In this document: piece after piece, positions 5,961 to 36,800 of the stretch
How the letters are laid out: every line of letters starts with the position of its first letter
Numbering within the stretch: the first letter of the stretch is position 1
Program-made: the position numbers and the translations under genes
Assembly (NCBI GenBank): GCA_020137815.1
Contig: CM035362.1
Span: 4,092,001-4,156,000, forward strand
Reading direction: 5' to 3'
DNA: 64,000 bases
Source: Hormiphora californensis
Taxonomy: Eukaryota > Animalia > Ctenophora
Notes under the pieces: generated by a model
Seen by the model: the letters and a program-made list of their open reading frames with translations, nothing else
Databases searched by the model: none
What the model was told of the DNA's origin: nothing

Positions 5961-8900
5961 CTCGCTACACTGGGCTTCTGAGTGTCCCAGACGAGCTAGA
6001 AGCTGGGGAGTGAGACGATACCATTGCAGGGCTGGAGTACGAGATATCTCCTCAACCTGAACGATATGTTGGTTGATTTCAGGAACCGACCGAAACAAGT
6101 AAACAACCAATGAGAACTCGTTATTTAGGTAACGTGACTGATAATCAGCCAATCAGGGACCAGTATTTCTTGATTCGGTCGGTTCCTGGTTGATTTGATT
6201 CGATAAGAGCGGTTGCCGTGGGCGTGAACCCCTGATGGGGCCCCTCCTCATCTTGGTTATAACAAAGTTACATTATGACCCATCATGACCCGCCCCCCCC
6301 TCGCCGGCCCCAAAAACAGAATAGTTGGTATGAATACCGTAAAAGCAGGTGATATATAATAATTACCAATTCATCGAGGGGTCGGTGGTGTGTGGTTAGA
6401 AGTTTTAGGAGTCTCAGAGCCGTCGTTAGCTCCCTGTGTGTTGTCTTCTCAACAGGACCACCAGCAGCCGCACAATCCTTCTTCCCCCGCGGAGAGGTGG
6501 AGGTATCGGCAGTAACTCCTTACTGCAACACTGGGGAGAGAGAGAGAGAGAGAGAGAGAGAGAGAGAGAGAGAGAGAGAGAGAGAGAGAGAGAGAGAGAG
6601 AGAGAGAGGGAGAGAAAGAGAGAGAGAGAGAGGTGGAGGTATCGGCAGTAACTCCTCACTGCAACACTATTAGAGAGAGAGATAGAGATAGAGGGAGAGA
6701 TAGAGATAGAGAGAGGTGGAGGTATCGGCAGTAACTCCTCACCGCAACACTAGGGAGGGAGAGAGAGATAGAGATAGAGAGAGAGATAGGGAGATGGAGA
6801 GAGGTGGAGGTATCGGCAGTAACTCCTCACTGCAACACAGTCAACTATAGTTTGGGTTAGTATGGTGTATATTATGGGGAAACAAGGACTTAGGACACAT
6901 TACATCTTGAAATTGAGTCATCCGTAGAACAACTACATTGATTTGGAAGTTCTGCATCCAAACTACAATACCAGTTCCTGCGGTCCTTTAGATGCAACAA
7001 CTTCTAAACTATGTTCGATTTGGTTCAATTCGGTGGTTTTTTGATGGCTAATTAATTAACTAACCAGCCGCTAAACTATGCATTCAAATCTAAAACTTAC
7101 GTGTAATTATAGTAGATCTTCCCCGTTAGGACATCGTACATTGAGCACAACTGGGAAACAGCACCAGGCATGACGTTACAATCATCACCCAGCACTCCAA
7201 TTAACCGCTTCTCGAGTCCTTCTCGGGATTGGTTTATTACGGCACCTGAGAAGAAGGGCTTGGTTACGCAATAGCACCCCTAAAGACCTTCTCAAGACCC
7301 TCTCGGGATTGGTTTATTACGGCACCTGAGAAGAAGGGCTTGGTTACGCAATAACACCCCTAAAGACCTTCTCAAGACCTTCTCGAGATTGGTTTGTTAC
7401 GGCACCTGAGAAGAAGGGGTTGGTTACGCAATAACACCCCTAAAGACCTTCTCAAGACCTTCTCGAGATTGGTTTATCACGGCACCTGAGAAGAGGGGCT
7501 TGGTTACGCAATAACACCCCTAAAGACCTTCTCAAGACCCTCTCGGGATTGGTTTATTACGACACCTGAGAAGAGGGGGATTGATTTGATATAACCTGTA
7601 TAAATCCTGTTACAACGTTGGTGACGCGTTCACTATCAGCCGCGTGAAGCTCGGCAAACGAAGCCCGCGAAGAGGGCATCACCCATTCACCCCGTTACAG
7701 GACAGGAAAAAGGTAGCCCTGCCCGAACCTCTCACGACTCACCCTGCGCGTTAGAACATACCAAACCAAAAGGGAATTAAACCCCCCCCCCATTTTTGTG
7801 ACCTAACCTAATAGGGTGTTCCATGCTTGTTCGGAGTGCTTTCCTGCGATGTTATCAACGAGGTCTTTCTCCTCGGGCAACAAGGTATCACCTGTAATGA
7901 GAGAGAGAGAGAGAGAAAGAGAGAGAGCGAGAAAGAGAGAGGGAGAGAGAGAGATAGAGAGAGAGAGAGAGAGACTGCGTACCTCGTGATAAGTTGATCT
8001 GTTCGATGCTCTTTCTACTGATGTTGAAAGCCCAGGAACCGAGGGAATACCATGCGTTTGCCATATCACTCGCCTCCTCAGAGACGTACCTGTTTTTGAG
8101 AGAGATAGATAGATAGATAGAGAGAGAGAGAGAGAGAGAGAGAGAGAGAGAGAGAGAACGAAAGAGAGAGAGAAATAGAGAGAGCGAGAGAGTGAGAAAG
8201 AGAACGAAAGAGAGATAGAGAGAGAGAGAGAGAGAGAGAGAGAGAGAGAGAGAGAGAGAAAGAGAGAAAGGGAGAGAGAGAGAGAGAGAGAGAGAGAGAG
8301 AGAGAGAGAACGAAAGAGAGAGAGAGAGAGAGAGAGAGAGAGAGAGAGAGAGAGAGAGAGAGAAATGTACCTGCGTAGCCGTCCCTCAAGCTGCTGGACA
8401 TCAGACATCGCCACCCCCGATGAAAAGCTCACCCCGGAACCAGCGGTAACTCGCTGTTCCAAATCTGCAGGAACAAATGGAACAGTTTTAAATATGTTTA
8501 CAATAAATCATCAGTTACAATGGCCCCGCACGCTTGCCAGCGCTATGATAAACCATCAGTTACTCTCTTCCCACTCTCGAGAGTGGGAACTGGGAATAAA
8601 GTAACTGCTCTCTGGGCCCACAAATTCGTTTGTGAAAAAGAATGGGGGTGAAAGAATGGGGAACTGTGAGTATCAGAAAATTAAAACAATCCACAACAAA
8701 CTCTCACCCAACAGCGATTGTAGGTAGGGAAAGCTGTTTGAGGACATGGCCATGATTCCCAAACTACTGTCTCTGGATATCCACTTAGCGAGGGTCAGAA
8801 CTCCCTTCATTGCGTTGTGTGTTCCTGAATCTGCAATAAAAACACACATTAGGTACGAGGGGGATGATTGTGGCAATGATAACATTCTTACCACATAAAT

Positions 8901-36350: not shown

Positions 36351-36800
36351 TTCACTACCTACTATAGAGATAGAGATAGAGATAGAGATACAAGGAGAAC
36401 AGTTTCACTACCTACTAAAGTCGGATTTTTTGAAACTGTCACCCCCCTGGAGTTTTCAAAATCGTTAAATGACCATAAGTCCGGTTCCTGATGAGATAGA
36501 GACTTGAAATTTGGAGGTTACGAAGATCTTGCTAAGTTCTTCCGAACCTCCAAATTTCAAGTCGCTATCTTATCAGGAACCGGAGATATGACAAATTTTG
36601 TTATTTCAGGGGGTGACAGTTTCAAAAAATCCGACTTTATAGAGATAGGGATAGAGATACAAGGAGAACATGTTCACTACCTACTATAGAGATAGGGATA
36701 GAGATAGAGATACAAGGAGACAATTTTCACTACCTACTATAGAGATAGAGATAGAGATACAAGGAGAACAGTTTCACTACCTACTATAGAGATACAAGGA
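36351..36800 (-). repeat. Tandem repeat of the acceptor upstream of the first SMG1 coding exon (ctctatag|TAGGTAGTGAA), about 5 copies
   Basis: ttcactacctactatagagatagagatagagatacaaggagaaca units. Confidence 0.8.
36418..36637. mobile_element. TA-flanked MITE inserted in one repeat unit
   Basis: TA|AAGTCGGATTTTTTGAAACTGTCACCCCCC...GGGGGTGACAGTTTCAAAAAATCCGACTT|TA. Confidence 0.85.

What the first reader, a model, noticed from the sequence alone, without database searches (positions are those of the whole stretch)
6492..36800. Splice-acceptor-anchored tandem duplication recurs in at least seven SMG1 introns
Seen: unrelated repeats at 6492-6838, 7218-7575, 10372-18998, 22246-22690, 26141-26235, 32989-33147 and 36351-36800 all duplicate the intron 3' end plus the first ~10-45 nt of the exon, and the distal copy is the functional one. 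Four of seven have AG|GT junctions. Inference: a mutational process targeted to intron-exon boundaries (e.g. pausing/R-loop-associated template switching), tolerated by exon-definition or recursive splicing. I know of no description of this as a gene-wide pattern.
Basis: partly seen in the sequence, partly recalled or inferred. Interest (0 to 1): 0.8.

Follow-up and report, generated by a model that had tools for sequence, protein, structure and literature searches.

The report
Repeated splice acceptors ("mirages") in SMG1
In a likely comb-jelly SMG1 gene, seven intron-exon junctions have been copied in tandem 2 to 77 times; this kind of repeat ("mirage") is known from lancelets and is likely spliced out harmlessly, and the less familiar part is one short intron-end sequence shared by five introns.

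Summary
7 of 35 modelled SMG1 acceptors carry duplications of intron end plus 16-39 exon bases, in 2-77 copies. One of them is missing from another sample's allele.

Corrections: (1) donors are duplicated too (3 cases; 7:3 is not significant, P=0.17); (2) AG|GT is background (4 of 7 vs 11 of 28, P=0.43); (3) the 36351 array lies before the start codon and may not be in an intron; (4) the repeats are not all unrelated, because a 35-bp intron-end module sits next to five acceptors.

Acceptor overlap exceeds random placement modestly (7 vs 2.2-3.3 expected, P=0.004-0.031; one pre-selected gene).

The class is known: amphioxus "mirages" and human CBS 844ins68. The scan has also noted it on other DNA (46 findings, at least 17 genomes).

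Best reading: ordinary tandem duplication, tolerated because the copy next to the intact exon is likely used; upstream copies would give early stops. No RNA was available to confirm this. Recursive splicing and R-loop targeting are unsupported. Verdict: new member of a known kind.

The parts
6367..36361 (-). SMG1 gene, 35 modelled coding exons (model stops at 6367; kinase exons not located); three one-base frame breaks in exons 11, 28, 35, likely assembly errors
   Evidence: AG/GT ends, phases; PF15785; homologues support the exon 6 acceptor and the exon 5-6 join
6492..6838 (-). Mirage at exon 35 acceptor (6530): 4 copies of 39 exon bases, separated by CT microsatellite; most upstream copy lacks AG
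7208..7579 (-). Mirage at exon 34 acceptor (7245): 80-bp unit, 4.6 copies, 94% matches, 38 exon bases
10372..18997 (-). Mirage at exon 26 acceptor (10395): 114-bp unit, 77 junction copies, 97% matches, 24 exon bases; a second AG|GT lies inside each unit
22244..22695 (-). Old, rearranged mirage filling intron 18, at exon 19 acceptor (22280): 7 AG|exon-start copies of 10-36 bases, built on the shared 35-bp module; part of it is also in organism B
   Evidence: table 8 record 24
26120..26238 (-). Two-copy mirage at exon 14 acceptor (26138), 71 bases apart; second copy missing in one allele of another sample
   Evidence: table 5 (X6 skips 26143-26226)
32987..33147 (-). Two-copy mirage at exon 5 acceptor (33019), 79-bp unit, 33 exon bases
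36346..36801 (-). Five-copy mirage at the acceptor before the start codon (36361), 47-53-bp unit, split by a palindromic insertion at 36416-36639; may be a leader acceptor, not an intron
8980..9162 (-). Donor-spanning duplication (36 exon + 8 intron bases, exon 29 donor 9127) with a fragment of a common short element between the copies
20754..21191 (-). Donor-spanning 19-base duplication (3 exon + 16 intron bases, exon 22 donor), copies 419 bases apart
28541..28582 (-). Donor-spanning 20-bp tandem duplication (exon 9 donor 28571); the intronic copy has lost its GT
21959..22031 (-). Shared intron-end module, intron 19, beside exon 20 acceptor (21952); carries about 12 bases that match exon 19, as in the intron 18 array
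25504..25682 (-). Shared module as a 35-bp array (5 copies) filling intron 15; copy number varies
   Evidence: (skip 25515-25556 in X1 and X6)
26536..26600 (-). Shared module, two copies, filling the 81-base intron 12; also in organism B
   Evidence: record 27
28471..28500 (-). Shared module, one copy, directly against the exon 10 acceptor (28468)
26726..26773 (-). 32-base duplication just upstream of the exon 12 acceptor, counted as intron-interior; absent in one allele
   Evidence: table 5 (X5 skips 26725-26758)

Best explanation
[quoted passage not shown] Shown: the arrays, their positions, allele differences, early stops behind upstream copies, donor-side examples, and a module shared by five intron ends. 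Inferred: (1) birth by slippage or microhomology-guided switching in a repeat-prone gene; (2) survival because only the last acceptor has a donor a normal exon length downstream, while leakage to an upstream copy would give a premature stop and decay; (3) growth and homogenisation by unequal exchange; (4) a modest acceptor excess, probably because repetitive pyrimidine tracts misalign with each other, also between neighbouring introns, which would explain the shared module.
For: Anatomy matches the mirage description in PMC3087553 (passages). A range of ages: 72-85% identity in the intron 18 array, part of which is also in organism B; 94-97% in three arrays; presence/absence alleles at 26143-26226 and 26725-26758. 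10 of 10 upstream acceptors tested give a stop within 6-37 codons. One upstream acceptor and one intronic donor copy have lost AG or GT. Donors are duplicated too, and 19 of 29 events touch no junction, so the gene is generally duplication-prone. The exon 35 copies end in a CT run that continues into the CT tract. The module gives 21 same-strand matches, 0 expected. Human CBS 844ins68 shows use of the distal site (passage).
Against: No RNA shows which acceptor is used. Step 4 is untested and one proxy failed: duplicated acceptors are not more G-run- or purine-rich than the others. Clear junction microhomology was seen in only one of seven arrays. Among tracts of 40 bases or more, 7 of 10 span acceptors and 1 spans a donor (7:1, P=0.035, post hoc), more skew than a neutral filter predicts. 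Median collapsed intron length is about 200 bases, where cross-intron rather than cross-exon recognition might be expected.
Confidence: 0.58

Rival explanations
1. No acceptor bias at all: the gene has many repeats and short introns, and 7 acceptor hits is a fluctuation in a window chosen for showing it.
For: P is only 0.031 under the stricter null; acceptor plus donor P=0.065; 7:3 P=0.17. Single gene, flagged after the fact.
Against: For tracts of 40 bases or more, P=3.5e-05 to 6e-04 (threshold chosen after seeing the data). The shared module lies within 3-15 bases of the acceptor in 5 of 5 introns.
Confidence: 0.2
2. One reading: a transcription- or splicing-coupled lesion (polymerase pausing, R-loop) targets duplication to 3' splice sites.
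For: Acceptor excess over random placement and the 7:1 skew among long tracts.
Against: The transcript at the acceptors is 4% G and 73% C+U, the unfavourable polarity for R-loops (established knowledge). Tandem Repeats Finder lists only 11 short arrays (period 22 or less) in 42000-64000, where other intron-containing genes lie (their junctions were not mapped). No direct evidence.
Confidence: 0.12
3. The extra acceptors are used: as recursive-splicing ratchet points, or as decoys that send some SMG1 message to nonsense-mediated decay and so tune the gene.
For: 4 of 7 are AG|GT, and one (exon 14) scores 10.0 as a donor. Upstream use gives premature stops. SMG1 is the decay kinase (established knowledge).
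Against: AG|GT is at background level (15 of 35 acceptors). The other three score 3.5-5.6. The exon 14 duplicate is missing in another allele. Five of the six true introns concerned are under 600 bases.
Confidence: 0.07
4. The repeats are long-read assembly artefacts.
For: The assembly has one-base frame breaks in three exons and a 2-kb block that looks like a second haplotype. The length of the 114-bp array was not checked with reads.
Against: Copies differ from each other by substitutions in a patterned way. Short-read contigs of X1 break at 26159/26206, as a true 48-base repeat would cause, and organism B holds part of the intron 18 array.
Confidence: 0.03

Closest known systems
Amphioxus 'mirage' minisatellites (Adh3, globins BflGb6/BflGb9, troponin C, PGBD5; PMC3087553 and PMC3902484, passages read; the original Adh3 paper, Canestro 2002, was not held)
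   Same: Tandem units made of an intron end plus exon start, or exon end plus intron start; variable unit length and copy number between alleles; many units keep splice signals; both boundaries affected; mechanism of origin stated as unclear.
   Different: Here a likely ctenophore; 10 junction-spanning events in one gene; one array of 77 copies (8.6 kb); a module shared by five introns. Normal splicing was checked by RT-PCR in amphioxus, not here.
Human CBS 844ins68 (PMC2630376, passage read)
   Same: Polymorphic 68-bp duplication of an intron/exon junction; the distal site is strongly preferred, so the message is normal.
   Different: A single two-copy event in one human gene.
Variable internal tandem repeats at human exon-intron boundaries (PMC2812944, passages read) and Rogers' AG|GT duplication model of intron gain (as cited there and in PMC3087553)
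   Same: Minisatellites at gene-structure boundaries.
   Different: Those create new introns or isoforms. Here the units contain true intron sequence and lengthen existing introns, and no new intron was shown.

Membership tests
Mirage minisatellites | Tandem unit spans an intron-exon boundary | tested here: met
   7 acceptors and 3 donors; boundaries come from a frame-based model, with one acceptor backed by homologues
Mirage minisatellites | Length or copy polymorphism between alleles | tested here: met
   X6 lacks the 26120-26238 second copy. Only 2 of the 7 arrays (this one and the second copy of the intron 18 array) lay in the stretch laid in that call.
Mirage minisatellites | Both 5' and 3' boundaries can be duplicated | tested here: met
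Mirage minisatellites | Normal mRNA is still spliced (extra sites largely unused) | tested here: inconclusive
   No spliced RNA contig covered the gene in the 2 RNA-labelled runs laid; only the frame argument is available
Mirage minisatellites | Somatic instability (reported for Adh3) | not testable with these tools
   needs single-molecule data from tissues
Recursive splice sites | AG|GT enriched, with a strong regenerated donor | tested here: not met
   4 of 7 vs 11 of 28, P=0.43; donor scores 3.5, 4.3, 5.6, 10.0 vs real median 8.8
Recursive splice sites | Ratchet junctions or saw-tooth coverage in nascent RNA | not testable with these tools
   no RNA reads
Intron-generating elements (Introner-like; definition recalled), for the shared module | Whole introns, both ends, are homologous | tested here: not met
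   Only the 3' module aligns; the 5' ends of the five introns differ by inspection

The most novel reading that the evidence does not exclude
In this lineage the 3' splice-site region behaves as a small mobile unit. A branch-point/pyrimidine-tract module is copied between neighbouring introns (five in SMG1, once carrying a piece of exon 19 along) and seeds acceptor-spanning arrays, so acceptors are truly biased sites of tandem duplication genome-wide and evolve in concert across introns.
Probability: 0.22. Interest if true: 0.62.

Novelty: new member of a known kind. Interest (0 to 1): 0.36.

Why it matters
As it stands, it extends mirages to a likely ctenophore and gives an unusually dense, polymorphic example: alleles with and without an extra acceptor, and a 77-copy array. 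That is a natural test of how a non-bilaterian spliceosome picks among identical 3' splice sites. If the acceptor bias and the inter-intron copying hold genome-wide, they would bear on the stated open question of how mirages arise (PMC3087553) and on how introns lengthen and acquire their 3' signals.

Tried and rejected
No whole genome was held, so no genome-wide test.

RNA: X13 and X7 gave no spliced joints on 18950-37300. The RNA piece over exon 4 runs on into the intron.

A homology search with exon 7 found nothing. The representative search returned 9 proteins; 5 are short SMG1-like pieces matching exon 6 and 4 match intron or repeat sequence. No full-length orthologue was obtained, so intron positions could not be compared across species.

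Two metagenome scans for the shared module found 0 matches. A findings search by its sequence found 0.

The G-run/purine test of duplicated acceptors was negative.

A candidate exon at 7596-7743 and a 30-base intron at 28032-28061 were dropped from the model, for stops and phase. A weak old acceptor copy at 32782 was not counted.

23905-24004 had no cover in 4 of 4 runs, which proves nothing by itself.

The Adh3 mirage paper was not held. Searches for ctenophore + minisatellite + intron + splice and for a genome-wide VNTR/splice-junction enrichment returned 0 papers. The ctenophore/Introner search listed nothing relevant. These cover only the open library; no supplements were read.

The control on junctions of neighbouring genes and a branch-motif count were not run, so whether SMG1 is special within the window rests alone.

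Full report
Gene and organism. The region holds a minus-strand SMG1 gene. Two exons match Pfam PF15785 (E 4.5e-09 and 2.2e-05; 2 of 20 stretches scanned). I built a 35-exon model from 36361 to 6367 with AG/GT ends. Phases agree except for one-base breaks inside exons 11, 28 and 35, which I read as assembly errors; therefore prints stops after exon 28, and the open frames are. Homologous fragments start matching at the exon 6 acceptor, and one runs across exons 5-6. The other boundaries rest on reading frame only. No genome was held. I take the animal to be a ctenophore from a recalled resemblance of its common short element and from unchecked earlier notes; this was not tested.

Observation. 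A scan for local direct repeats gave 31 clusters between 6250 and 36900. Only the last copy continues into the full exon. 10 of 10 upstream acceptors tested, from five arrays, reach a stop within 6-37 codons. The most upstream copy at exon 35 has lost its AG. The array at 36346-36801 lies before the ATG, downstream of a QCR6-like gene (PF02320). [quoted passage not shown]

Three duplications span donors: 8980/9119, 20754/21173 and 28541-28582. An allele in X1 also repeats 25177-25188 across the exon 17 donor (record 3). Many short arrays lie inside introns. The repeats are not all unrelated. A 35-bp module begins 3-15 bases from the acceptor in introns 9, 12, 15, 18 and 19. It gives 21 matches, all on one strand, against 0 in 100 shuffles; 8 of the 21 fall in a probably doubled block. 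The intron 19 copy carries about 12 bases matching exon 19, as units of the intron 18 array do, which suggests copying from that array into the next intron (inferred). Organism B has the module in introns 12 and 18. Loose ends in all four runs suggest further copies outside the stretch laid (inferred).

Chance. From the 31 clusters I dropped three (the doubled block and two mirror parts of inverted elements) and split one, leaving 29 events, with tract lengths set by me. One tract per event was placed at random on the collapsed introns, allowing overlap of one junction. Acceptors: 7 observed vs 2.16 expected (P=0.004). With likely transposon and nested-gene DNA removed: 7 of 21 events vs 3.26 (P=0.031). 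Donors: 3 vs 2.1-3.2, not significant. Acceptor against donor, 7:3, P=0.17. For tracts of 40 bases or more the excess is stronger (P=3.5e-05 to 6e-04; 7:1, P=0.035), but that cut was chosen afterwards. The gene was itself selected for showing the pattern, so these values overstate the case. AG|GT occurs at 15 of 35 acceptors; 4 of 7 vs 11 of 28 gives P=0.43.

Alleles. In one search (23905-26895, four DNA runs) X6 skips 26143-26226, removing the second exon 14 copy. X5, from the same sample, has different letters there. X5 skips 26725-26758, and X1 and X6 skip 25515-25556. X1 may be the source sample and is not independent. Copy identities run from 72-85% (intron 18) to 94-97%, so the process spans old and recent events. 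Five of the seven arrays were not examined for alleles in this way; one search covered two more, but its tables were filled by high-copy elements. No spliced RNA was found.

Mechanism. The most likely route is slippage or template switching, survival through use of the acceptor next to the intact exon, and growth by unequal exchange (all inferred). For it: the allele data, the early stops, donor-side and interior events, and a CT run joining exon copy to CT tract at exon 35. Against or open: no RNA; no excess of G-runs or purines at duplicated acceptors (P=0.41-0.73); microhomology clear in one array only; introns of about 200 bases. PMC6142364 (passages) treats exon definition as relevant in most eukaryotes analysed and reports higher exon skipping in a ctenophore than in unicellular relatives, which allows but does not show cross-exon choice here. 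R-loop targeting is disfavoured because the transcript at acceptors is 4% G. Recursive splicing is disfavoured by background AG|GT and weak regenerated donors in three of four cases.

Comparison. [quoted passage not shown] They occur at both boundaries, are length-polymorphic, do not disturb splicing and are of unclear origin; Adh3 units range from 10 to 72 bp. PMC3902484 (one passage) adds troponin C and PGBD5. The Adh3 paper itself was not held; that it reports many mirages in one gene is my recollection. CBS 844ins68 shows distal-site preference (PMC2630376, passage). PMC2812944 (passages) covers human boundary repeats. I found no ctenophore report and no genome-wide acceptor test in the open library. 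The scan's notes list 46 similar findings in at least 17 genomes (unchecked).

Verdict. Real, known in kind, dense in this gene, with a modest and unproven acceptor bias. The shared intron-end module is the part worth following. Interest 0.36.

Noticed in passing
window 22070-22866 vs 24025-24810 (and 23435-23944 vs 24803-25189): About 2 kb of SMG1 (exons 18-19, part of 17) appears twice at 90-97% identity. The indels that break the second exon 19 copy are read intact in the contigs (24118 in 4 of 4 runs, 24197 in 3 of 4), so this is probably two haplotypes assembled in tandem.
   Followed up: partly
window 26905-27971: A high-copy palindromic element of about 1.06 kb; its inverted end covers the last 5 bases of exon 11 and the GT donor, so the element appears to supply this donor.
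   Followed up: partly
window 33719-33811: A truncated copy of the common 110-bp element begins exactly at the exon 3 donor and supplies its GT.
   Followed up: no
window 56067-56198: In a plus-strand gene, an internal fragment of the same element (GT...AG, about 58 bases) sits between two copies of about 37 exon-like bases, with short matches at both joins: an apparent templated insertion like that at 8980-9162.
   Followed up: no
window 29731-31082: Plus-strand ORFs, one with a Sushi domain (PF00084), nested in SMG1 intron 7.
   Followed up: partly
window 36990-37560: QCR6-like gene (PF02320) on the same strand, ending about 600 bases upstream of the SMG1 first acceptor; possibly a polycistronic pair.
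   Followed up: partly
window 19034-19309: A 92-codon minus-strand ORF inside SMG1 intron 25 with no Pfam match.
   Followed up: partly
window 6536, 7899, 8098, 9647, 28932: Long CT microsatellites on the sense strand form the pyrimidine tracts of five SMG1 acceptors.
   Followed up: no
window 38534-40957 and about 50300-54450: An 807-codon reverse-transcriptase-like ORF and a longer broken LINE-like element (read by eye).
   Followed up: no
window 42457-48390 and 59200-63400: Cluster of C2H2 zinc-finger genes in both orientations, several broken, with an assembly gap at 45409-45508.
   Followed up: no
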